32,000 nucleotides of DNA, taken from Patescibacteria group bacterium (GTDB lineage: Bacteria; Patescibacteriota; Patescibacteriia; 2-01-FULL-39-33). A program made the position numbers and the translations under genes. The DNA is taken from positions 60,001 through 92,000 of the forward strand of contig JBAZMW010000001.1 in NCBI GenBank assembly GCA_041649575.1. Direction: 5' to 3'. Below are positions 7,458 through 19,490 of this stretch, one piece after another. The notes under the pieces were generated by a model. The model was not told the origin of the DNA and searched no databases. It saw only the letters and a program-made list of their open reading frames with translations. Each line of letters begins with the position of its first letter. The stretch's first letter is position 1.

Positions 7458-9512
7458 ATGACTGGTTTAGAAACAAAAGTTAACCAACTCTCGGGCATTG
7501 GCAAGACCATTAGCCTAAGATTGAAAAGATTAGGAATTGAGACCATTGGCGATCTCATTTTTTATTATCCCTTTCGTTATGATGACTTCAGCCAGCTGAC
7601 AACCATTGACCAGCTAAAAAGCGGTTCGGTGACAACGGTTAAGGTAAGAATGGAGTTGCTTGCCAATCGTCGGACATTTAGAAAAAAGAAAATAATTACC
7701 GAAGGCGTAGCCAGCGACAGCACCGGTTCGATAAAAGTTATTTGGTTCAATCAACCCTGGATAGCCAAAAATATCAAAGTGGGCGAAGAGATTTATCTCT
7801 CCGGCAAAGTGGCCGGCAACCTGTTTGATATTTATCTCAATTCGCCACTTTATGAAAGAGCTGCTGCGGCCAACCTTAATACCGCCAGATTGGTGCCAAT
7901 TTATTCGATCACCGAAGGAGTTTCGCAAAAGCAGTTGAGGGCTTTGGTAAAAATAGCTTTGAATTTTGTGGGGAATGTTTCAGATTTTTTGCCCGAAAAA
8001 ATAGTCAAACAAGAAAGGCTATTAAGCCTGCCGCTGGCTTTGAAACAAATTCATTTCCCGGAAAACCACAAAAAACTAGCGGCGGCCAGAACCAGACTAG
8101 CCTTTGAGGAGTTATTCTTATTGCAGCTTTGGTCGCAACTGATAAAGAAAGAGCTGGATCAGAAGACTTCCTGGCCGGTGGTTTTTCAGCGGGAAAAAAT
8201 AAAGGAATTTATTGACGGTCTGGATTTTAAACTGACGACAGACCAAAAAAAAGCTGCTTGGGAAATCATCCAGGACTTGGAGAAGAAGCGGCCGATGAAT
8301 CGTCTGTTAGAAGGCGATGTCGGTTCGGGCAAGACGCTGGTAGCGGCTCTGGCCATCTTTAACACTGCTTTAAACGGCTATCAGAGCGTCTTATTGGCGC
8401 CGACAGAGATTCTGGCCCGGCAGCATTTTCAGACTTTTGATAAATTATTTAAAAATAAAGATTTGAAAATCGGTTTATTAACCAGGAGTAATAAACTAAT
8501 AAACCAAGAAGAAGTCGGTAAAAAGGAATTTTTGGCTCGTTGCCGGGCAGGAAAAATACAGATTATTATTGGGACGCACGCGGTTATCCAAAAAGAAGTG
8601 GCTTTTGCGAAGCTGGCTTTGGCAGTGATTGACGAGCAGCACCGCTTTGGTGTTGATCAGCGTCAGATTTTGAAAAAGCAGTCGGAGAAAACTCCGCATT
8701 TTTTGTCGCTGTCGGCCACCCCTATTCCGCGTTCCTTGGCTTTGATAATTTATGGCAGTCTGGATTTATCAATCATTAAACAGCTGCCGCCAGGCCGCCG
8801 GCCGGTAATTACCAAGGTAGTGGCTCCAGAAAACAGACAGTTGGCCTATGAATTTATCAGCAAAAAAATAACAGAGGGCCGGCAGGTGATGGTGATTTGT
8901 CCGTTGATTGATCCTTCAGATAAACTAGGAGTGCGTTCGGTGACGGAAGAATTTAAAAAGCTGGACCAGGAGGTTTTTCCTCATTTACCAGTAGGGTTGT
9001 TGCACGGCAGACTGAAAGCCAGCAATAAAGAAAAGGTGATGGCCGAATTCGTGGCCGATAAAATAAAAATTCTAGTAGCCACCTCGGTAGTGGAGGTGGG
9101 AGTGGACGTGCCCAATGCCACAGTGATAATGATTGAGGGGGCAGAACGTTTTGGTCTGGCCCAGTTACATCAGTTTCGGGGACGAGTGGGGCGTGGCCGA
9201 GAACAGTCCTATTGTTTTCTTTTCAGTGCTAGCCCGGACCAAGAAACGGCCAAAAGGTTGTCGGCAGTGACGGCAACCAGTGACGGTTTTATACTGGCAC
9301 AAAAAGATTTGCAACTAAGAGGCGCCGGTCAGATCTATGGCTATCGGCAGTCTGGTTTTGACGAGCTTAAAATCGCCAATCTTGATGATTTGCCTTTAAT
9401 AAAAAAAGCCCGTTTCTGGGCAGAAAAGATAATCAACGATGACTGTTTAGATAAATACCCTTTGCTGCTTGAAAAAATCGAAGCCTTGGGGCTCACCAGT
9501 CATTTAGAATAA
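7458..9512 (+). CDS. recG: ATP-dependent DNA helicase RecG
   Basis: 684 aa. N-terminal wedge/OB-like region. Helicase motif I 'GDVGSGKT', motif II 'DEQHRFG', 'LSATPIPRS', 'QLHQFRGRVGRG'. Confidence 0.9.
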   Translation: MTGLETKVNQLSGIGKTISLRLKRLGIETIGDLIFYYPFRYDDFSQLTTIDQLKSGSVTTVKVRMELLANRRTFRKKKIITEGVASDSTGSIKVIWFNQPWIAKNIKVGEEIYLSGKVAGNLFDIYLNSPLYERAAAANLNTARLVPIYSITEGVSQKQLRALVKIALNFVGNVSDFLPEKIVKQERLLSLPLALKQIHFPENHKKLAAARTRLAFEELFLLQLWSQLIKKELDQKTSWPVVFQREKIKEFIDGLDFKLTTDQKKAAWEIIQDLEKKRPMNRLLEGDVGSGKTLVAALAIFNTALNGYQSVLLAPTEILARQHFQTFDKLFKNKDLKIGLLTRSNKLINQEEVGKKEFLARCRAGKIQIIIGTHAVIQKEVAFAKLALAVIDEQHRFGVDQRQILKKQSEKTPHFLSLSATPIPRSLALIIYGSLDLSIIKQLPPGRRPVITKVVAPENRQLAYEFISKKITEGRQVMVICPLIDPSDKLGVRSVTEEFKKLDQEVFPHLPVGLLHGRLKASNKEKVMAEFVADKIKILVATSVVEVGVDVPNATVIMIEGAERFGLAQLHQFRGRVGRGREQSYCFLFSASPDQETAKRLSAVTATSDGFILAQKDLQLRGAGQIYGYRQSGFDELKIANLDDLPLIKKARFWAEKIINDDCLDKYPLLLEKIEALGLTSHLE

Positions 9513-10295: not shown

Positions 10296-11648
10296 TTATT
10301 GCGTTGGAAGCCTCTTTTTTTTGCCGATAATTTTAACAAGCTCTCTGATATCACTAATAGAAACAACCCTTGTTTTATTAGTAGCAGCACCCTTGTTTGG
10401 CGGGGAGACGATTTTCTCGAAGTTAAGCTTGAGGGCTTCAGAGATAATTTTTTCCATTTGCGGTACCGATCGAATTTCGCCGGCCAGGCCCAGCTCGCCA
10501 AAAATCAAGAGCCCAGGGCTAACAGGCAGTTCTAAAAAGGCAGAAATTATAGCGGTAGCAACCGCTAAATCCACACCAGGGTCTTTTATTTTCAAACCGC
10601 CGGCAATATTTAGGTAAATATCCTGGTTATTAAGGTTGAGTTTGGCTATTTTGGAAATCACGGCAATAATTAACTGCAGACGATTAAGATCAAAGCCGGC
10701 AGCTTTTCTTTGGGGATAGCCAAAAACAGTTTTGGTGACCAGCGCCTGCACCTCTAGAAAAAACGGCCGTTGACCTTCTATCACTGCGGTGACAACCGCA
10801 CCAGTGGCCGGATAATTTTCTTTTTCCAAAAATACTTGTGAGGGATTGCTGACTTCTTTCAGGCCAAGGTCGGTCATTTCAAAAACGCCTATTTCTCCAG
10901 TGGAGCCAAAGCGATTTTTACTGCTGCACAAAATTTTATAAAAATTTTGGTTGTCATTTTCCAAATACAGGACGGTATCGACCAGGTGTTCCAAGCTCTT
11001 AGGTCCGGCGACCAGCCCTTCTTTGGTGACGTGGCCGATAATGATGATAGGGATGCCAGATTTTTTGGCCACTTCCAGCAGCTGACTGGTAATGGAGATA
11101 ATTTGCGCGGCCGAGCCCAGATTAGAGGCGGGATCATGAAAACGCATAGTCTGGATAGAATCAACAATAGCCAGTTCCGGCTTGACTTCTTCGATGGTGG
11201 CGATGATTTTACCGATGTCGGTCTGGGCCAAAAAACGCAGATTATTAAGATCCAGGTTGATTCTTTGGGCTCGAATCTTTACTTGATTGCCGGACTCCTC
11301 GCCGGAGACATAAAGAACATTTTTTAATTTATCGGAGATTTGCAGGCAGAGGGTCGATTTGCCAACGCCCGGATCGCCGCCGATCAAGATCAGAGACCCC
11401 TTGACTATGCCGCCTCCTAAAACCCGGTCCAACTCTTGAATTTTAGTAGAGAGTCTGGCCTGACTGATGTCGGGCAATTGCTTCAGATCTATTGGTTGGT
11501 CAGGCGCGGTTTTGGGCGTTTTTTTATCGTTGTTTTCAACGGCTTGCTCCTGAATGGTTCCCCAAGAGCCGCATTCCAAACAGCGCCCTTGCCACTTGGG
11601 ATATTGGGCGCCGCATTTGAGGCAGGAATAAATTAAGCTATGGGCCAT
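10296..11648 (-). CDS. radA: DNA repair protein RadA/Sms
   Basis: N-terminal Zn finger 'CLKCGAQYPKWQGRCLECGSWGT'. Walker A 'GGDPGVGKSTL'. 'KNRFG' motif. Lon-like C-terminal domain. Confidence 0.9.
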   Translation of the reverse strand: MAHSLIYSCLKCGAQYPKWQGRCLECGSWGTIQEQAVENNDKKTPKTAPDQPIDLKQLPDISQARLSTKIQELDRVLGGGIVKGSLILIGGDPGVGKSTLCLQISDKLKNVLYVSGEESGNQVKIRAQRINLDLNNLRFLAQTDIGKIIATIEEVKPELAIVDSIQTMRFHDPASNLGSAAQIISITSQLLEVAKKSGIPIIIIGHVTKEGLVAGPKSLEHLVDTVLYLENDNQNFYKILCSSKNRFGSTGEIGVFEMTDLGLKEVSNPSQVFLEKENYPATGAVVTAVIEGQRPFFLEVQALVTKTVFGYPQRKAAGFDLNRLQLIIAVISKIAKLNLNNQDIYLNIAGGLKIKDPGVDLAVATAIISAFLELPVSPGLLIFGELGLAGEIRSVPQMEKIISEALKLNFEKIVSPPNKGAATNKTRVVSISDIRELVKIIGKKKRLPTQ

Positions 11649-11649
11649 A

Positions 11650-12435
11650 TTATTTTAGGTAACATTGGCAGGAGTAAGTATTAATGGTGTCTCCATTTTT
11701 TGGGGCGTGGGTGTAGACCAGGTTAGCGTATCTTTCAGAGCACCAAGAGAAGCAGAGTTGATCGGCGGCCTCCTGACTGTTAGCTTTAATGTCGGTGGGG
11801 CCATTACGATAATTCAGAGTAGTCGCTTTGTCACGGCAAAAACAGGACCATAAATTAGGACTACTGCCTTGCTCTACACGTTCAAACTCCTGGTTGTTGT
11901 TAGAACATTGGTTTTGGCATTGTTTTTCGGCTTCTTCTTTACTACCGGTAGAAGCTAAGCCGACTGGCTGGGTGCTGGCAGTGGGGGTTGTAACACTGTC
12001 TAAATGCGGCATCGTTATCACTGTCAGCTTGGGATTGATCAAATACAAAATAGTGAAAGACAAAAAAGCCAAGACCAGACCAATCAAGGCGGAGATAATA
12101 ATCTCTTTGGCCTGTCCGATCTCGGAACTATTGCCTCGAGAAGCCAGCCACTTGAATCCGCCCCACATCACCATCACCGCCGCCAAGACTCCCACGGCGC
12201 CGATGATTAGACGATACCAAATATTAAAGTAAGTGCCCAAGATGTTAGCATCGGTGACATTAAATTCTTTGGCCATATTGCCGAGAGGCACATTAAGGCA
12301 AACTTTTCCTGCTGGGCAAGAGCCGGCGGCTCCGGAGGCGGCTGCCGGAGTTTCTCCGGGGGTAGCTCCCAAAGCCAGAAGAGGAGCAGTAAAAAACAAG
12401 ACAACCAAAAATAAGATTATTATATTTTTTTTCAT
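11650..12435 (-). CDS. VirB2/TrbC-like T4SS pilin with a Cys-rich C-terminal ectodomain
   Basis: Signal peptide 'MKKNIIILFLVVLFFTAPLLALGA'. Two hydrophobic helices flank a short basic loop ('GAVGVLAAVMVMWGGFKWLASRGNSSEIGQAKEIIISALIGLVLAFLSFTILYLI'). The C-terminal ~95 aa contain 10 Cys. Confidence 0.55.
   Translation of the reverse strand: MKKNIIILFLVVLFFTAPLLALGATPGETPAAASGAAGSCPAGKVCLNVPLGNMAKEFNVTDANILGTYFNIWYRLIIGAVGVLAAVMVMWGGFKWLASRGNSSEIGQAKEIIISALIGLVLAFLSFTILYLINPKLTVITMPHLDSVTTPTASTQPVGLASTGSKEEAEKQCQNQCSNNNQEFERVEQGSSPNLWSCFCRDKATTLNYRNGPTDIKANSQEAADQLCFSWCSERYANLVYTHAPKNGDTINTYSCQCYLK
12002..12212. repeat. 211-bp near-identical segment, copy 1 (pilin core)
   Basis: By hand alignment, 208 of 211 positions are identical to 13054-13264. 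The three differences are all transitions and all synonymous. Confidence 0.95.
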
Positions 12436-12449
12436 TTTATTGGCGGTTT

Positions 12450-13631
12450 TTAGAGACAGGACGTTTGCGCCCGATTAATGAACTGTTGTTCGCCATCGGC
12501 GCTTTCTAAAATATTGGCGTTACTGTTGATTCGGCTGGATACCCCCATACCCGGATCGGTTTTGAAAAAATTAAGGTAGTTGGTCCTCATATATTGGGCG
12601 GCTCCCGCTCGATCGCCAGCCCGGATTCTAGAAGCGGTTTCACTTAAAAATACTGAATTAGGACCAAATTGATAAGCGGTGTCTGCTAAAACCGCTTTAG
12701 CCTGGGGATCAAGTCTCTCCCAGCCGTCGCCATAAGCGTTGGCCGCTCCCGGCCAATAGGTATTATTGTAATTATTCCAAAACCAATTTTTTTCCGTTTC
12801 ATAATCGACAGAATTCGGCCTTTGGTCGCTATTATGCCCAAAGCCATAAGTATAGCCGTGCAGGTCGGCATAAGGAGTGCTGTTGTATCCCTCATAAGAA
12901 GCGGTAAAGGCATGATAATAATCAACGCCACCGGCGGTTTCTGAGCAAGGAACTTTGGCTTGGGAGTAATATGGCCCTGGCAGACCGTTTGGGTCGACAG
13001 ATAAAGAGATGCCTCTGGGAACAAGGTTGGTATGAACAACCTGCACACTATCCAAATGCGGCATCGTTATCACTGTCAGCTTGGGATTGATCAAATACAA
13101 AATAGTGAAAGACAAAAAAGCCAAGACTAGACCAATCAAGGCGGAGATAATAATTTCTTTAGCCTGTCCGATCTCGGAACTATTGCCTCGAGAAGCCAGC
13201 CACTTGAATCCGCCCCACATCACCATCACCGCCGCCAAGACTCCCACGGCGCCGATGATTAGACTAAACCAAACAGCAAGGTAGTCTTCCAGGCCAGAGG
13301 CGGTAGTTTTGGAGCCAAGAGGCACATTAAGCTTAATACTGATTGATCCTTTTGATTCTTCGGAATTAATTCCGACAGGGCCGCTGAATTGATCGAGAGT
13401 TTCTCCGGCGGCCAAGAAGGAGCGACAGCCTTGCTGGCAGGTTATCAAGAGAGAATCGTTGGCCGCCCTGGCCAGGCCCTGATTTTCCCTGTTTCCATAA
13501 TCCGTGTAACATTGGTTGACGCAGTCGGTGTATTTTGTTTTGTCGGCCAAAACATTTTTTGGCAACAAGCTGATGGCCAAGAGGATAATCGCAGGCAAAA
13601 TTATTCTTAACAGTTGTCGTTTGGTGATCAT
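12450..13631 (-). CDS. VirB2/TrbC-like pilin core fused to a C-terminal GH24-like lysozyme domain
   Basis: Signal/anchor 'LRIILPAIILLAISLL', then a Cys-containing N-domain. The pilin core is identical to that of the neighbouring gene. Then 'SYEGYNSTPYADLHGYTYGFGHN...LDPQAKAVLADTAYQFG', resembling the phage lysozyme signature E-G-x5-Y-x-D-xx-G-x-T-x-G-x-G-H. Confidence 0.55.
   Translation of the reverse strand: MITKRQLLRIILPAIILLAISLLPKNVLADKTKYTDCVNQCYTDYGNRENQGLARAANDSLLITCQQGCRSFLAAGETLDQFSGPVGINSEESKGSISIKLNVPLGSKTTASGLEDYLAVWFSLIIGAVGVLAAVMVMWGGFKWLASRGNSSEIGQAKEIIISALIGLVLAFLSFTILYLINPKLTVITMPHLDSVQVVHTNLVPRGISLSVDPNGLPGPYYSQAKVPCSETAGGVDYYHAFTASYEGYNSTPYADLHGYTYGFGHNSDQRPNSVDYETEKNWFWNNYNNTYWPGAANAYGDGWERLDPQAKAVLADTAYQFGPNSVFLSETASRIRAGDRAGAAQYMRTNYLNFFKTDPGMGVSSRINSNANILESADGEQQFINRAQTSCL
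13054..13264. repeat. 211-bp near-identical segment, copy 2 (pilin core)
   Basis: Same evidence as copy 1. Flanking sequence on both sides is unrelated, apart from a short 'agaggcacattaag' match upstream in gene orientation. Confidence 0.95.
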
Positions 13632-14350
13632 CGGTTTAGTTCTATTTTGATAATGTTTTCGAAATCGGCCAAAGAAGCTTGTCCGGAGAGCTCCTGGCTG
13701 TTGATATAAAAATGAGGCGTACCAGTAAGCAGGAGCTCATCGGCTTCCTGGACATCTTGCTCAATTAGCTTTTCAATATTTTTGTCTGTTAAACAATCAG
13801 AAAAAAGTTTTTCATTTAAATTCAGTTTTTGGGCTAGCGCCAGAAGATTTTTTGCAGAAAAATTTTTTTGGTTTTGCCACAACAGATCGCTGTAGGCCCA
13901 AAATTTATTTTGTTGCCCAGCGCAGCGGGCGGCTTGATGGGCCAGATAAGAATCTTCTACTCCCGAAAAAGGCAGGTCTTTCCAAACTAGCCTGACCTGA
14001 TCCGGATATTTTTCAATAATTTTTTTCAACACATTTTGGGTGGCAGCGCCGTATTCGCAGGAGAAACTGGAAAATTCGAAAATGGTTATTGGCGCATTAG
14101 GATTGCCCAAAATTGGCGCTTGGGCTTTCATTTTTGGCTCTAGGAGTTTTTGTTCGGGCACATAACTGACCAAGCCATTGTCGATCACTGCTTTTTGTCC
14201 GGTAAGGGCTGCCGGGGCCGTGTTTTTTAATGCCGTCTGGGTTTTTTGCCGGGAGACGGAGGCCAAAGACAGCAAAAAGAAAGACACAATTATTATCGCC
14301 AAAATAACGAGAATACCTTTGAGATAGTCGGGAGTTTTATTTCTTGGCAT
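13628..14350 (-). CDS. Membrane-anchored DsbA/thioredoxin-fold protein with a CxxG (CEYG) site
   Basis: N-terminal TM 'GILVILAIIIVSFFLLSLA'. DsbA-family layout: 'ITIFEFSSFSCEYGAATQ...VRLVWKDLPF...HQAARCAGQQNKFWAYSDLLW...TGTPHFYIN'. Its stop overlaps the downstream pilin gene start by 4 nt (ATGA). Confidence 0.7.
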   Translation of the reverse strand: MPRNKTPDYLKGILVILAIIIVSFFLLSLASVSRQKTQTALKNTAPAALTGQKAVIDNGLVSYVPEQKLLEPKMKAQAPILGNPNAPITIFEFSSFSCEYGAATQNVLKKIIEKYPDQVRLVWKDLPFSGVEDSYLAHQAARCAGQQNKFWAYSDLLWQNQKNFSAKNLLALAQKLNLNEKLFSDCLTDKNIEKLIEQDVQEADELLLTGTPHFYINSQELSGQASLADFENIIKIELNR

Positions 14351-15612: not shown

Positions 15613-16974
15613 TTATTGACCGCCAATTCTTTGAGCCGCCTCTTGCACGGCAGTGTTGCCTCCGGGCAAAGCTCCGGCCAGCCAAATCATGGCGCCGCCC
15701 CAAAGGCCAATATTATAGATCCGGTAGCCGACGTAAAGTATCAAAGCGATAATGCTAAACAAAATTCCGTTAATAATGGCCAGAATAATTATTTCGGTCC
15801 ATTTAGCCAGCTCTTTTGGCAGCCACCGGCCGATCAAGTAGTCTTCGCCAAAGTCGGCTATTTTATCGGTAAAGAGGGTGGTTGCCAGATAGAGATTCAG
15901 TCCCCAAAGAGTGAGAGTAGTCCAATCAAGCCAGACCGCTCCCCACATTGAAGTAAGAATGGCGGCACTCTCTTGCTTGACGGCCAAATTAACCGTAGCT
16001 TTGGCATCGGAAATTTTTAAAGAAGCGGCTAGGCTGGCGGCTTGTTTAAAGTTGTTTCTCGATTTCTCCCTGGCGCTTTGAATTCTTTGTTCTGTCGTTT
16101 GCCTTAGTTTGTCAGCTTCTTTTTCTTTGCTTTTATTTTTTTCTGATTCTTTTTTGTTTTCTTCTTCGACTTCTGGGGTTGGTGCTTGCGATTTTAGATC
16201 GCCGTTTTTTTCGTCTTTTTTGCCAGTGGCGTCTTCTTTTGGTTTTTTATCTTTTTTATCATCCTCCCCCTTTTTCTCACCTTCCGCCTTTTCCGATTTT
16301 TTGTCTTTCTTGTCTTTTTTTTCGCCTTCCTTTTCCTTTGCCCCTGTTTCTCCAGCCGGTTTTTCTTCCTCATCTGTTGCCTCGGCCGGCTCTCCAGCGA
16401 TATTTTTTTTATGTTCTTCACCGGCCTCGGTTTGTGGTTCTGTCTCCGTTTCTTCTTCCGAGTCAGAAAAGAGATTGGCATTAGTGTCTTCACCGGCGCC
16501 TCCCCAATCTTCACTCTGGTCGTAGATGTCTTCTAGATCATAGGGATTTTCTTTGTCCCGCGGCAGATAGCCTTCCGCCTCCCTCCTTTTTTCTAACCGG
16601 GCTTCCTCCTGTTTTCTTCGTAAAGCGGCAGCCTGGCTGGAGCTGTCTTTTAGGCCGCCACTGCCAATAATGGAAGCGTTGGCAGCCCGTCTAGCAACAC
16701 CCAAGGTATCGCCAAAATTTTTTGCTCCGGCTTTGGCTCGGCCAATCGCTCCTTGCTGGGCCAGAGGAAAACCGCTGGCTCGAGAGCTGATTTTTTGGGC
16801 TATTTTGTCTAGTGTTAGGCCGGCAACTCTGGTCATTCTGCCCGCGCGGCTGTTGGGACTAATGGCGCCAGCGGCTTTGGTTGCCCCGGCCAGGCCTCTT
16901 AAGCCAAGAGTGTCCAAAGACCTACCCGCCGGGCGAGAGGTTCTGTTTAATTGGTGGGCGAGATTATCGGACAT
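15613..16974 (-). CDS. Membrane protein with a basic N-terminus, a ~200-aa Glu/Lys-rich low-complexity region and a C-terminal multi-TM domain
   Basis: 'EEKPAGETGAKEKEGEKKDKKDKKSEKAEGEKKGEDDKKDKKPKED...' followed by hydrophobic segments 'ILTSMWGAVWLDWTTLTLWGLNLYLATTLF', 'IIILAIINGILFSIIALILYVGY' and 'GLWGGAMIWLAGALPG'. No signal peptide. Confidence 0.6.
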   Translation of the reverse strand: MSDNLAHQLNRTSRPAGRSLDTLGLRGLAGATKAAGAISPNSRAGRMTRVAGLTLDKIAQKISSRASGFPLAQQGAIGRAKAGAKNFGDTLGVARRAANASIIGSGGLKDSSSQAAALRRKQEEARLEKRREAEGYLPRDKENPYDLEDIYDQSEDWGGAGEDTNANLFSDSEEETETEPQTEAGEEHKKNIAGEPAEATDEEEKPAGETGAKEKEGEKKDKKDKKSEKAEGEKKGEDDKKDKKPKEDATGKKDEKNGDLKSQAPTPEVEEENKKESEKNKSKEKEADKLRQTTEQRIQSAREKSRNNFKQAASLAASLKISDAKATVNLAVKQESAAILTSMWGAVWLDWTTLTLWGLNLYLATTLFTDKIADFGEDYLIGRWLPKELAKWTEIIILAIINGILFSIIALILYVGYRIYNIGLWGGAMIWLAGALPGGNTAVQEAAQRIGGQ

Positions 16975-17009: not shown

Positions 17010-19490
17010 TTAGGCGTTGACGCTTAACTTTATTATACCATTTTTTTCGCTAAGCTGCACAGTATTGCCGGCAGAGGCCCTATCTTCAAGAATTTTTTGG
17101 GACAGCGGCATTTCTATCAGCTCTTGAATTGTCCGGCTGATGGCGCGGGCGCCGGGAGAATCTTTTTGGCTTTCTTTGGCGAGAAAAACGATTAGCTTGC
17201 GGCTGAATTTCAAAGCAATTTTTTGTTTTTTCAGTTTTTCTTCCAATTTTTTCAGTTCCAGCTTGACGATGTCTTCCAAATCGTGACTGGAAAGCGGGTT
17301 AAAGTAGATTATTTTATCAACCCGATTCAAAAATTCCGTTCTAAAATGATTTTTAACTTCATTGATAATTATTTTTTCCAGAGGTGAAGAAAACTTTTCT
17401 TGACTTTGAGAAAAACCGATGGTTTTCTGTCGCTGAAAACGGTGGGAACCAAGATTGGAAGTCATGATAATGACAGTGTTTCTAAAGTTAATTTTAACTC
17501 CGGTGGCATCGGTCAGGTAGCCATTATCGAGCACTTGAAGCAGTAAATTGAAAACTTCCGGATGCGCTTTTTCGATTTCATCGAATAAAATTAAAGAGTA
17601 GGGACGATGTTTGACTTTTTCGGTCAGTTGCCCGCTCTCTTTGTAGCCGACATAGCCTGCCGGGGCTCCAATCAACTTGGAAATATTGAATTTTTCGCTG
17701 TATTCCGACATGTCAATGCGAATCAGCGCTTCAGGGCTGTTAAAAATCGATTGAGCCAGAATTTTGGCGGTATAGGTTTTGCCGACGCCGCTTGGTCCGA
17801 CAAAAATAAAGGAAGCAAGAGGCTTGGTCTCATCGGTTAGTCCGGCCTTGGCTCTTTTGACAAAGCCGGCAATGGTTTTCAAGGCCCCGTCCTGTCCGAT
17901 AATCATTTCTTTTATCTGCTGGTCCAAATTAAGCAGTTGGCGTTTTTCCGAAGAGAGCAGGTTGTCCAGAGGAATGCCGGTGATTTTAGTGAGAATTTGG
18001 GCGACATCTTTATCGGTTATTTCACCGATGTTCAAGTGAGATTTTTTTTGATTTTTTTTCTTTAAGGCGCCTAGCTCTTCGTTTAATAGTTCAACTTGTT
18101 TTTTAAACGCCAGCGCTTCGGCAAAGTTTTCACTAAAGATCGCCGTTTCCTTGTTTTTATTCAAACTGCTTATTTCCTCGGTCAGTTTGTAGATTTTTTT
18201 GTCTAGAGCGGATGTTTTTTTGTTAATTCTAATGGCGGCGCAGGCTTCATCAATGAGGTCGATCGCCTTATCGGGCAAAAATCGTTCCGGCAGGTATCTT
18301 TGGCTAAGCGTGATGGCGGCGCTGATGGCCGTTTCATTAATTCTAACGTGATGAAAATTTTCTAGATTTTCTTTGATGCCCAGTAGGATTTTTCGGCCTT
18401 GTTCGCCGGTTGGCTCATCAATTTTTACCGGTTGAAAGCGGCGGTTTAAGGCCGGGTCGTTTTCGATAGTTTTGCGATAATCCTCAAAAGTGGTGGCGCC
18501 GAGGCAATGAATCTCGCCTCTGGCTAGAGCCGGTTTCAAAATATTGGCCGTGTCCAGCGACCCGGAGGCCGAGCCGGCGCCGACGATATTGTGGATTTCA
18601 TCAATGAAAATGATGACTTCGGGACGGTTTTTGACCTCCTCGATTATCTGTTTGATGCGGTTCTCAAATTCGCCACGGTACATGGTGCCGGCAATGGTGG
18701 CAGTAAGATCTAGCGAATAAATTTTTTTGTCTCGCAATATTTCTGGCACATCGCCGGACAGGATTTTTTTGGCTAAACCCTCGACGATGGCGGTTTTGCC
18801 CACGCCGGGCTGGCCCAAAATAATGGGATTATTTTTGGTGCGGCGGGACAAAATCTGGATAACCCGACTGATTTCCTCCTCGCGCCCGATGACGGGGTCG
18901 ATTTTTTTCTGTACTTTGGGCGAAGTCAAATTGACGCCAAAAACATCCAGGACTCCGGTTTGGCCGTAGGGGACTTCCGGGTCGAGATATTCCTCCGATC
19001 GTTTGCCGATAACCTGAAATATTTCGGTCAGGTCGGGGAGCTTGGAAGCGCTTTTTAAGACGGCCGCGGCTCTTTGTACCAAATCATTTTCCGAAAGTTT
19101 GAAATTGTTGAATATTTTTTTAACCTCCTGGTCTCCGACTTCCAAGATGGCGGTCAAAAGATGTTCAGTGCCGATGTATTTATGGCGATTAAGATAAGAA
19201 ATCTGAACTGATTTTTGAATAATTTTTTTGGCGTCGGGAGAAAATTGAGGCAGAACTTTTGTCACGGCTTGGTTTTTTGACAAATGACTTTGGGCAATGC
19301 TGTTTTTGACTTCGGCCGGCTTAAGCTCTAAAGAATTAAAAAGCTCGGCGCCGACGCTACCGCGCTGGAGGATCAAACCGTAAAGGAGATGAATCGGATC
19401 AATCCAAAAATGGGCCAACTCCTGAGCCAGTTCGGCGGCGGTTTTAAGAGATTTTTTATAATTATTGGAGAATTTATCCAAAGTGTCCAT
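17010..19490 (-). CDS. clpC: ClpC-type AAA+ unfoldase (Clp ATPase)
   Basis: Clp_N repeats at the N-terminus. Two Walker A motifs, '[15 protein letters not shown]' and '[12 protein letters not shown]'. Walker B motifs 'IIFIDEIH' and '[10 protein letters not shown]'. Short middle domain. 'KTIGFSQ' is a candidate ClpP-docking IGF loop. Confidence 0.85.

What the first reader, a model, noticed from the sequence alone, without database searches (positions are those of the whole stretch)
11650..13631. Two adjacent pilin paralogs share a 211-bp, 208/211-identical core but have unrelated N- and C-terminal ectodomains
Segments 12002-12212 and 13054-13264 differ at only three positions, all synonymous transitions. 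Sequence on both sides is essentially unalignable: a Cys-rich tail in one gene and a lysozyme-like tail in the other, with different N-domains. Such sharp identity boundaries inside tandem genes point to recent gene conversion or recombination that keeps the membrane-assembly core homogenised. The core could also act as a recombination handle for shuffling surface 'heads', a cassette-type variation of pilus subunits.
Basis: seen in the sequence. Interest (0 to 1): 0.6.

Follow-up and report, generated by a model that had tools for sequence, protein, structure and literature searches.

The report
Gene-converted anchor shared by two wall-enzyme genes
Two neighbouring genes of an ultra-small (Patescibacteria) bacterium share an almost identical membrane anchor because the anchor is repeatedly copied from one gene to the other, in this genome and across its family, while the outer domains (mostly cell-wall-cutting enzymes) are swapped around it; this is a clear but not fundamentally new case of concerted evolution.

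Summary
Genes A (11650-12435, minus strand) and B (12450-13631, minus strand) share a 211-nt core with 208/211 identity, and all three differences are synonymous. The flanks are about 35-38% identical, and the genome holds only these two copies.

Both cores are Pfam PF18895 (VirB2-like two-helix hairpin). B's tail is a GH24 (T4-lysozyme-type) muramidase. A's tail is an orphan 8-Cys domain.

The pair sits in a conserved slot (clpC ... propeller, dsbA-like, pair, radA) in 26 genomes of the family that I examined.
- In the core tree, paralogs pair by genome, mostly with 100/100 support.
- Within-genome core identity is 68-100%, against a between-genome median of 58% (36% at third codon positions).
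- Orthologous tails (GH24, SLT, M15-like peptidase) are scattered over that tree, and AU tests reject tail-based clades (p 5e-69 and 9e-94).

So recurrent gene conversion is strongly supported.

Congeneric genomes show N- or C-domain swaps with breakpoints at the core edges, so the core does act as a recombination pivot over evolutionary time. A programmed cassette system is not supported, because there are no silent copies.

Closest precedent: concerted evolution of the Bartonella Trw pilus genes.

The parts
12450..13631 (-). Gene B, 393 aa: signal peptide, twin-CxxxC helical N-domain, VirB2-like hairpin, disordered linker, GH24 muramidase domain
   Evidence: ORF. PF18895 38.3 bits against cut-off 26.6. 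AF2 model secondary structure. Its start overlaps the dsbA-like stop by 4 nt (ATGA).
11650..12435 (-). Gene A, 261 aa: signal peptide, short N-part, VirB2-like hairpin, Thr/Pro/Ser linker, orphan 8-Cys alpha/beta tail
   Evidence: ORF. PF18895 36.0 bits. AF2 model. It starts 14 nt after B's stop; the radA start follows 1 nt after its stop.
12002..12212 (-). Converted core, copy in gene A (codons about 75-145); near-identity extends over 11993-12221
   Evidence: 208/211 identical to 13054-13264; the differences are all synonymous. 229 nt at 96.9% by BLASTN.
13054..13264 (-). Converted core, copy in gene B (codons about 123-193); near-identity extends over 13045-13273
   Evidence: Same as for the copy in gene A.
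12037..12258 (-). Helical hairpin of A (aa 60-133): TM1, short basic loop (K, R, K), TM2
   Evidence: AF2 helices 60-100 and 103-133, pLDDT 70-79. PF18895 match at residues 70-133.
13089..13292 (-). Helical hairpin of B (aa 114-181)
   Evidence: AF2 helices 114-146 and 151-181. PF18895 match at residues 114-181.
12453..12926 (-). GH24 (T4-lysozyme-type) muramidase domain of B (aa about 236-393), with E247 and D256 at the catalytic positions
   Evidence: A profile of seven relatives hits T4 lysozyme and the gp5 lysozyme domain at E about 4e-12, aligned from T4L residue 11. E, G and D are invariant. All top Foldseek hits are GH24 endolysins. The single-sequence Pfam PF00959 score is only 17.0 against cut-off 22.3.
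13428..13541 (-). N-domain of B: two helices, each with a CxxxC motif (4 Cys)
   Evidence: Sequence. AF2 helices 31-50 and 58-68. Similar 4-Cys N-domains occur in relatives (cluster N3).
11653..11940 (-). Cys-rich tail of A (aa 166-261): two repeats of helix(CxxxC) + strands(CxC)
   Evidence: Sequence. AF2 single-sequence model, pLDDT about 55-79. No homologue in 5.8 billion proteins by word-seeded search. No fold match.
13628..14350 (-). DsbA-like thioredoxin-fold gene immediately upstream, translationally coupled to B; the active-site region reads SFSC
   Evidence: PF13462 E 4e-28. Comparison with relatives.
10296..11648 (-). radA, immediately downstream; the conserved right border of the slot
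   Evidence: Pfam. Synteny in all relatives examined.
1863..4914 (+). Context: PrgI/VirB3-like (1863-2309) and VirB4-like ATPase (3010-4914) of the Patescibacteria-type T4SS, about 7 kb away
   Evidence: PF12666 E 1.3e-8; PF19044 E 3.6e-29.

Best explanation
A and B are ancient tandem paralogs in a conserved envelope gene string (clpC, unknown gene, TolB-like propeller, dsbA-like, B, A, radA). Each protein is exported by a signal peptide. Each is held in the membrane by a VirB2-like two-helix hairpin whose short basic loop faces the cytoplasm, so both the N- and C-terminal domains lie outside the cell.

Shown: the about 220-nt stretch that encodes the hairpin is repeatedly overwritten by non-reciprocal homologous recombination (interlocus gene conversion) between the two direct repeats. 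The two anchors therefore evolve in concert within each genome, while the same anchors diverge freely between genomes.

Shown: the outer domains are modular. Across the family the slot carries GH24 or SLT glycosidases, M15-like peptidases and several orphan domains on the same anchor.

Shown: recombination at the edges of the core has replaced N- or C-domains between sister species. Copy number in the slot also varies: 1, 2 or 3 genes, or one ORF with two cores.

Inferred: B is a membrane-tethered muramidase that does a VirB1-like wall-opening job. A presents a disulfide-rich domain of unknown role.

Inferred: the matching anchors let the two proteins sit in, or dock to, the same assembly, possibly the nearby Patescibacteria-type T4SS. 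That would make homogenisation tolerated or even favoured by selection.
For: 1. The repeat is exact: 208/211, with synonymous-only differences and random-level flanks.
2. Synteny of the slot is conserved in all 26 family genomes examined and in 5 genomes of other families.
3. Identity over the 219-nt core columns is 68-100% within genomes, with three pairs at 99.5-100%. The between-genome median is 58%, and 36% at third positions. For 37 of 43 cores the nearest neighbour is the paralog in the same genome.
4. In the ML tree, same-genome pairs have 100/100 support in most genomes. The GH24, SLT and C0 labels need 6, 9 and 12 changes for 6, 9 and 13 rows. AU tests reject a GH24 clade and an SLT clade of cores (p 5e-69 and 9e-94).
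5. The tails are orthologous between genomes. The GH24 tails of G000 and G023 are 60% identical over 206 aa. SLT is PF01464 at E 1e-20. In the C0 tail, H-x6-D plus a C-terminal His are invariant, and one of the 13 members hits Peptidase_M15_3 at E 2.8e-8.
6. Tract lengths and edges differ between genomes, from 62 to 429 nt. This is expected from independent conversion events.
7. Domain swaps have breakpoints at the core edges in G014/G046/G024.
8. Contigs of several MAGs break inside the core, in G020, G015, G042, G043 and G011. This is typical of near-identical repeats.
9. GC3 is higher in the core than in the rest of the gene by +0.13 on average, in 43 of 47 genes. It is not higher in four non-homogenised small pilin genes. 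This is compatible with GC-biased conversion.
10. B is GH24.
Against: Conversion events are therefore inferred from their outcome, not observed.

In one genus (G014/G024/G046) the cores cluster by position, not by genome, so conversion is episodic and partial.

The functional part is untested. The pair is not inside the T4SS cluster; it lies about 7 kb away and is transcribed from the other strand. PF04956 TrbC is below threshold. A's tail has no known relative.

Selection for matching anchors is only hinted at. G011 has 25 synonymous and 0 non-synonymous differences, and G023 has 16 and 0. Pooled over all pairs, however, the non-synonymous to synonymous ratio (0.42) does not differ from that of congeneric orthologs (0.49).

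The genomes are kin, so the counts overstate independence.
Confidence: 0.82

Rival explanations
1. Birth-and-death instead of conversion. In each lineage one gene was recently duplicated, and one copy then received a new tail, so the cores are alike because they are young, not because they were overwritten.
For: Copy number at the slot does vary: one gene in G044 and G001, three in G011, two cores in one ORF in G010. Tails have demonstrably been replaced between sister species.
Against: The same three tail families recur across genera in the same slot. The GH24 tail was found almost only on this kind of protein among 1.8 billion representatives, so an outside donor is unlikely. Near-identity covers different, sharply bounded sub-segments in different genomes, while homologous pre-core sequence next to it is old. 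The model would need a fresh duplication plus tail replacement in nearly every genus.
Confidence: 0.1
2. Programmed cassette-type variation. The shared core serves frequent within-population recombination that switches which head is displayed, as in pilE/pilS or msp2.
For: The layout is a conserved core with variable flanks, and heads are combined in many ways across genomes. radA and comF-like genes lie nearby.
Against: The genome has only two copies and there are no promoterless donor cassettes. Both copies are complete genes in one gene string. The repeats are direct, so crossing-over deletes. The other seven PF18895 genes of the genome do not match the core at the DNA level and match the 87-aa core segment only weakly (36-37% identity for the two listed). 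The recurrent heads are enzymes rather than adhesin-like variable loops.
Confidence: 0.05
3. Assembly artefact. A collapsed or consensus-polished repeat makes two diverged cores look alike.
For: The genome is a metagenome-assembled genome. Repeats of this kind break contigs in related MAGs.
Against: The copies differ at 7 sites over 229 nt, and the longest exact shared run is 103 nt. That is shorter than the k = 141 implied by the name of a second assembly's contig. This contig (ENA ERZ27247363, 116 kb) carries an identical roughly 8-kb region with both genes. Twenty-five other assemblies from other projects show the same pattern, with identities from 68 to 100%.
Confidence: 0.02
4. Nucleotide-level constraint. 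An RNA or regulatory element embedded in the core keeps both copies identical without recombination.
For: In G000 the identity includes synonymous sites.
Against: Between genomes the third positions of the same columns are only 36% identical, so no nucleotide-level element is conserved. Some pairs (G011, G023) are protein-identical but differ at 16-25 synonymous sites.
Confidence: 0.01

Closest known systems
Concerted evolution of the Trw type IV secretion pilus genes (trwL = VirB2 homologue, trwJ) in Bartonella (Nystedt et al. 2008, Mol Biol Evol 25:287; reference 82 of PMC12102498)
   Same: Tandem paralogs of a T4SS VirB2-type protein are homogenised within a genome by recombination, while surface-exposed parts diversify.
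   Different: As I recall it (the paper was not read here), the Bartonella case involves whole small pilin genes amplified in arrays within the T4SS operon of a diderm pathogen. Here conversion is confined to the membrane hairpin of two large proteins. Their outer domains are unrelated to each other and are mostly peptidoglycan hydrolases across the family. The pair lies in a clpC-radA housekeeping string of a Patescibacterium.
VirB2-like (PF18895/PF04956) pilin arrays of Patescibacteria (Quinonero-Coronel et al. 2025, PMC12102498; essential pilin array of S. epibionticum, Wang et al. 2023, PMC10633639)
   Same: The same Pfam domain, the same phylum, and tandem arrangement.
   Different: Those arrays are reported as highly variable: mean 25% and maximum 54% amino-acid identity. 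A text search of the paper found no 'gene conversion' and 'concerted evolution' only in a reference title. Whole-protein identity hides the mosaic seen here, where 73 residues are identical inside proteins that are otherwise unalignable.
VirB1-type cell-wall hydrolases of monoderm T4SS (as I recall, e.g. TraG of pIP501, PrgK, CwlT), which combine a glycosidase and a peptidase domain (summarised in PMC12102498)
   Same: A lytic transglycosylase or muramidase together with a peptidase, membrane-tethered, in organisms that have a monoderm-type T4SS.
   Different: Here the two activities are on two separate genes, for example SLT + M15 in G013, G016 and G021, and GH24 + M15 in G023 and G048. Each rides on its own copy of a VirB2-like hairpin. 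In the window's own genome the second gene carries an orphan Cys-rich domain instead of a peptidase.
Long-lasting, region-limited gene conversion between duplicated mtrA genes in one operon of methanogens (PMC4632066; abstract only, from the listing)
   Same: Prokaryotic paralogs from an ancient duplication within one operon, shaped by long-lasting gene conversion.
   Different: Different proteins and domain of life. The abstract mentions no domain shuffling.
Neisseria pilE/pilS antigenic variation (from my own knowledge, not tested here)
   Same: A pilus-subunit gene has a constant part and a variable part, and recombination uses the constant part.
   Different: It is an unrelated protein family (type IV pilin). 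Many silent cassettes donate the variable part to one expression site. Here there are no silent copies, and it is the constant part that is copied.

Membership tests
PF18895 T4SS_pilin / VirB2-like pilin | Match to the family HMM above Pfam's gathering score | tested here: met
   A scores 36.0 bits and B scores 38.3 bits against cut-off 26.6.
PF18895 T4SS_pilin / VirB2-like pilin | Signal peptide followed by two hydrophobic helices joined by a short basic loop | tested here: met
   Sequences. AF2 helices 2-22, 60-100 and 103-133 in A; 4-21, 114-146 and 151-181 in B.
PF18895 T4SS_pilin / VirB2-like pilin | Small mature subunit consisting essentially of the hairpin | tested here: not met
   The proteins are 261 and 393 aa, with N- and C-terminal ectodomains of about 40-200 aa.
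PF18895 T4SS_pilin / VirB2-like pilin | Encoded within a T4SS gene cluster | tested here: inconclusive
   PrgI-like and VirB4-like genes lie at 1863-4914 on the other strand, about 7 kb away. The pair's own conserved neighbours are the propeller, dsbA-like and radA genes.
PF18895 T4SS_pilin / VirB2-like pilin | Polymerises into a pilus | not testable with these tools
   Needs microscopy or biochemistry.
PF04956 TrbC/VirB2 | Match above the gathering score | tested here: not met
   B scores 14.0 bits against cut-off 27.9. A is not listed.
GH24 (T4-lysozyme-type muramidase), gene B tail | Sequence-profile relationship to solved GH24 enzymes | tested here: met
   Profile A2 against PDB hits T4 lysozyme and the gp5 lysozyme domain at E 4e-12 to 1e-10, aligned from T4L residue 11.
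GH24 (T4-lysozyme-type muramidase), gene B tail | Catalytic Glu and Asp in the E-G-x5-Y-x-D ... G-x-G-H motif | tested here: met
   E247, G248, Y254, D256, G265 and H266 are invariant in A3. E60 and D69 are invariant in A2. Their equivalence to T4L E11/D20 comes from the HMM alignment and my knowledge of T4L.
GH24 (T4-lysozyme-type muramidase), gene B tail | Fold | tested here: met
   The AF2 model has pLDDT 75-95 over residues about 280-390. The top Foldseek hits in PDB are nearly all GH24 endolysins or T4L, with probability up to 1.00 and TM (target) 0.5-0.63, but weak E-values of 0.03 or higher.
GH24 (T4-lysozyme-type muramidase), gene B tail | Pfam PF00959 gathering score reached by the single sequence | tested here: not met
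   17.0 bits against cut-off 22.3. This is a divergent member.
Concerted evolution by interlocus gene conversion | Paralogs within a genome are more alike than orthologs between genomes | tested here: met
Concerted evolution by interlocus gene conversion | The duplication predates the divergence of the genomes compared | tested here: met
   The slot is conserved. Tail families are orthologous between genomes.
Concerted evolution by interlocus gene conversion | Homogenised tract includes synonymous sites and has sharp, genome-specific borders | tested here: met
Concerted evolution by interlocus gene conversion | Conversion events or recombinant molecules seen directly in reads or strains | not testable with these tools
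No near-identical strain was found in metagenome contigs.
Cassette-type antigenic/phase variation (pilE/pilS-like) | Silent donor cassettes sharing the constant segment | tested here: not met
   The genome has only two copies of the core, both in complete genes.
Cassette-type antigenic/phase variation (pilE/pilS-like) | Within-population recombinants | not testable with these tools
   No reads were available.

The most novel reading that the evidence does not exclude
The two anchors are kept identical by selection, not only by conversion. On this reading the VirB2-like hairpins of A and B co-assemble into one oligomer or short filament at the Patescibacteria-type T4SS, and this assembly displays different heads side by side: a glycosidase plus a peptidase in most relatives, a muramidase plus a disulfide-rich domain here. 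It would be a wall-breaching 'armed pilus' used on the bacterium's own wall or on the host's. The shared anchor would then also be the universal adaptor that lets new heads be plugged in by recombination.
Probability: 0.2. Interest if true: 0.8.

Novelty: new variant of a known kind. Interest (0 to 1): 0.55.

Why it matters
1. It gives a clean, family-wide example of domain-restricted concerted evolution in very small genomes, which are usually thought to be poor in repeats and recombination.

2. It reframes part of the 'pilin' repertoire of Patescibacteria. At this conserved locus the VirB2-like hairpin is an anchor for peptidoglycan hydrolases (SLT, GH24, M15-like). This may supply the VirB1 function that surveys reported as mostly missing near virB4 in these organisms.

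3. Whole-protein identity statistics hide such mosaics. Surveys of pilin arrays should therefore be repeated at domain level.

4. The identical anchors suggest a testable physical interaction between the two proteins, or with a shared partner.

Tried and rejected
- Strain variants: an exact 40-nt core pattern found nothing in metagenome contigs. A protein-seeded scan returned only distant relatives already known from the genome set.
- Gene A tail: no homologue besides itself. The single-sequence AF2 model has only moderate confidence, and Foldseek gave no match below E = 1. The 2x(CxxxC...CxC) pattern is read from the sequence only.
- B tail as a single sequence against PDB: nothing. The profile was needed.
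- C0 tail profile against PDB: no hit. The M15 assignment rests on one member's Pfam hit and on the invariant H-x6-D...H.
- Ten other tails have no Pfam match. Motif-level resemblances of some of them to M15 or Cys/His peptidases are leads only.
- Selection for matching anchors: the pooled ratio of non-synonymous to synonymous differences is 0.42 for paralogs and 0.49 for congeneric orthologs, which is no difference. Only G011 and G023 stand out.
- The unknown 453-aa gene (15613-16974) as a hidden third pilin copy: it was not among the PF18895 matches in the genome and is not similar to the upstream pilin-core genes of other families.
Full report
OBSERVATION

Two ORFs lie head-to-tail on the minus strand: B (12450-13631, 393 aa) and, 14 nt further downstream, A (11650-12435, 261 aa). 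The repeat finder reports one long direct repeat, 11993-12231 / 13045-13283.

All are third-position synonymous transitions.
- BLASTN extends the match to 229 nt at 96.9%. The encoded 73 residues are identical.
- The 60 nt on either side are 35% and 38% identical without gaps.
- The 920-kb genome has only these two copies.

The one refinement is that about 25 residues before the core are recognisably homologous but old.

WHAT THE GENES ARE

Both cores match Pfam PF18895 (T4SS_pilin) above threshold. PF04956 TrbC is below threshold. Both proteins start with a signal-peptide-like helix. The core forms two long helices joined by a short basic loop. By the positive-inside rule (my inference) this places both N- and C-terminal domains outside the cell.

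Gene B:
- Its tail is a divergent GH24 muramidase.
- The single sequence misses Pfam's cut-off (17.0 against 22.3 bits).
- A profile of seven relatives hits T4 lysozyme and the gp5 lysozyme domain at E about 4e-12, starting at the catalytic Glu.
- The Glu, Gly and Asp of the signature are invariant.
- Nearly all top fold matches of the AF2 model are GH24 endolysins.
- Its N-domain is a pair of helices, each with a CxxxC motif.

Gene A:
- Its tail has eight Cys arranged as two repeats of CxxxC ... CxC.
- It has no detectable relative.
- It has no fold match.

CONTEXT

On the minus strand the genes run clpC (17010-19490), an unknown 453-aa gene, a TolB-like propeller, a dsbA-like gene whose stop overlaps B's start, then B, A and radA.

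A Patescibacteria-type T4SS module (PrgI-like, VirB4-like) lies at 1863-4914 on the other strand.

COMPARATIVE TEST OF GENE CONVERSION

All 34 genomes of the family held in the collection have matches to the core. I extracted the locus from 26 of them, including the window's own genome.

The slot is syntenic in all of them, and also in five genomes from other families of the class. The duplication is therefore old.

Over the 219 aligned core columns:
- Within-genome identity ranges from 68 to 100%. Three genomes are at 99.5-100%; the window's genome is at 97.3%.
- The median between genomes is 58%, and only 36% at third codon positions.
- For 37 of 43 cores the nearest neighbour is the paralog in the same genome.
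- The six exceptions belong to three congeneric genomes (G014, G024, G046), whose cores group by position.

In the maximum-likelihood tree, same-genome pairs are supported at 100/100 in most genomes.

The tails tell a different story. BLAST clustering gives recurrent families shared between genomes:
- GH24 in 6 genomes. G000 and G023 are 60% identical over 206 aa.
- SLT lytic transglycosylase in 9 genomes (PF01464, E 1e-20).
- A family in 13 genomes with an invariant H-x6-D and a C-terminal His. One member hits Peptidase_M15_3 at E 2.8e-8.

On the core tree these labels are maximally scattered. AU tests reject a clade of GH24-linked cores (p 5e-69) and of SLT-linked cores (p 9e-94).

Orthologous tails on genome-specific cores are the signature of concerted evolution. 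The homogenised tracts also differ in length and borders from genome to genome, from 62 to 429 nt and in two genomes reaching the start codon. This fits independent events.

THE CORE AS A PIVOT FOR DOMAIN EXCHANGE

Three congeneric genomes show this directly:
- The second genes of G014 and G046 are about 85% identical through the N-domain and the core, up to the end of the second helix. Beyond that point they are unrelated: an M15-like tail in one, an SLT tail in the other.
- G014 and G024 share the core and the tail, but differ by the presence of the 4-Cys N-domain. The break lies just before the pre-core motif.

N- and C-domain families occur in many combinations. The slot holds one gene (G044, G001), two (most genomes), three (G011), or one ORF with two cores (G010). 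Unequal recombination between the direct repeats is the simplest cause; this is my inference.

A programmed cassette system is not supported:
- There are no silent copies.
- Both copies are complete genes in a single tightly packed gene string.
- The other seven PF18895 genes of the genome do not match the core at the DNA level.

ARTEFACT?

Reads could not be examined. Several other points argue against an artefact:
- The two copies differ at 7 sites, and their longest exact shared run is 103 nt.
- A second assembly's 116-kb contig carries an identical roughly 8-kb region with both genes. Its name implies k = 141, which is longer than that run.
- The same pattern recurs in 25 independent assemblies.
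- In several fragmented MAGs, contigs end inside the core. That is what near-identical repeats do to assemblers.

SELECTION OR DRIFT?

In G011 the cores differ at 25 synonymous sites and no non-synonymous site. In G023 the counts are 16 and 0. Congeneric orthologs at similar synonymous distance differ at 8-13 residues. This hints at selection for matching proteins.

Pooled over all pairs, however, the ratios do not differ (0.42 versus 0.49), so I treat this as a lead only.

GC3 is higher in the core than in the rest of the gene by 0.13 on average, in 43 of 47 genes. It is not higher in four small pilin genes of this genome that are not homogenised. This is compatible with GC-biased conversion. 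The genomes are kin, and amino-acid composition was not controlled.

FUNCTION (INFERRED)

Twenty-four of the 26 loci carry at least one recognisable peptidoglycan hydrolase on this anchor (my tally, counting one SLT tail read by motif only). Several carry a glycosidase in the first gene and an M15-like peptidase in the second.

That mirrors the two-domain VirB1-type hydrolases of monoderm T4SS summarised in PMC12102498. The same paper also notes that VirB1 homologues are mostly not found near virB4 in Patescibacteria.

I therefore think that B is a membrane-tethered wall-opening enzyme, and that identical anchors place both proteins in one assembly or at one partner. This was not tested here.

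COMPARISON WITH THE LITERATURE

PMC12102498 reports 441 VirB2 arrays in Patescibacteria, with mean 25% and maximum 54% amino-acid identity. A text search of it found no 'gene conversion' and 'concerted evolution' only in a reference title. It is one of only three papers in the library that name PF18895.

The closest precedent is the concerted evolution of the Bartonella Trw pilus genes (Nystedt 2008, cited there). A prokaryotic parallel for long-lasting gene conversion between duplicated operon genes is mtrA in methanogens (PMC4632066).

The mechanism is thus known. What I did not find described is the domain-restricted mosaic on hydrolase-bearing VirB2-like anchors, conserved over a whole family.

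VERDICT

Gene conversion is strongly supported. Head shuffling is supported over evolutionary time only. Cassette-type variation is not supported. This is a new variant of a known kind, of moderate interest.

Noticed in passing
window 13628-14350 (-): The dsbA-like gene upstream of B reads SFSC where relatives have C-x-x-C (CYGC, CFGC, CFAC, CNFC). By alignment the first Cys of the pair is lost. Other relatives keep a single Cys, and one (G006) has none. A classical disulfide oxidase role is therefore doubtful in this genome, even though it sits next to Cys-rich exported proteins.
   Followed up: partly
L048 (G011) 765-2728 and L038 (G023) 4313-6604: In these two genomes the paralogous cores are identical in protein sequence but differ at 25 and 16 synonymous sites, with no non-synonymous change. 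This suggests selection for matching anchors. The pattern is not seen when all pairs are pooled.
   Followed up: partly
cores of all family loci, e.g. window 12002-12212 and 13054-13264: GC3 of the core exceeds that of the rest of the gene (0.60-0.63 against 0.41-0.53 here; +0.13 on average, in 43 of 47 genes). Four small pilin genes elsewhere in this genome show no such excess. This may be GC-biased gene conversion.
   Followed up: partly
G000:C3:134026-137465 (L004, L005): Two adjacent giant ORFs (about 1080 and 3300 aa) each begin with a PF18895 hairpin. The two hairpins share 81% nt identity over 117 nt around the loop. Similar pairs (about 1000 aa plus 3300-4200 aa) recur in most family genomes.
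   Followed up: partly
G000:C4:85394-87196 (L003, L010): This is an array of four small (128-144 aa) PF18895 genes. Two neighbours share 79% nt over 150 nt, with an identical 23-residue stretch in helix 2. The other pairs are below 71% or unalignable.
   Followed up: partly
L035 (G010) 6361-8157; L048 (G011) 2-2728; L052 (G044) 983-2002; L050 (G001) 2682-3962: Copy number at the same slot varies: one ORF with two hairpins plus an SLT tail (G010), three genes (G011), or a single gene (G044, G001).
   Followed up: partly
L066 (G131), L067 (G079), L068 (G080): In other families of the class, one anchor-bearing gene lies upstream of the propeller gene and another lies before radA, about 3 kb apart. 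These pairs still share 66-84% nt identity over 129-159 nt.
   Followed up: no
window 15613-16974 (-): The 453-aa gene between clpC and the propeller encodes a long Lys/Glu/Asp-rich low-complexity region followed by C-terminal hydrophobic helices. It has no Pfam or NCBIfam match.
   Followed up: no
L060 (G048; record CAYVUR010000001.1): The public record title calls this genome an 'uncultured Gammaproteobacteria bacterium', although it belongs to the same Patescibacteria family as the window by the collection's grouping and by locus synteny.
   Followed up: no
G020:C13, C64, C65; G015:C64; G042:C3; G043:C45/C3; G011:C24: Contigs of several related MAGs begin or end inside the core. This is consistent with near-identical repeats breaking the assemblies, so these loci are probably under-represented in MAG surveys.
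   Followed up: no
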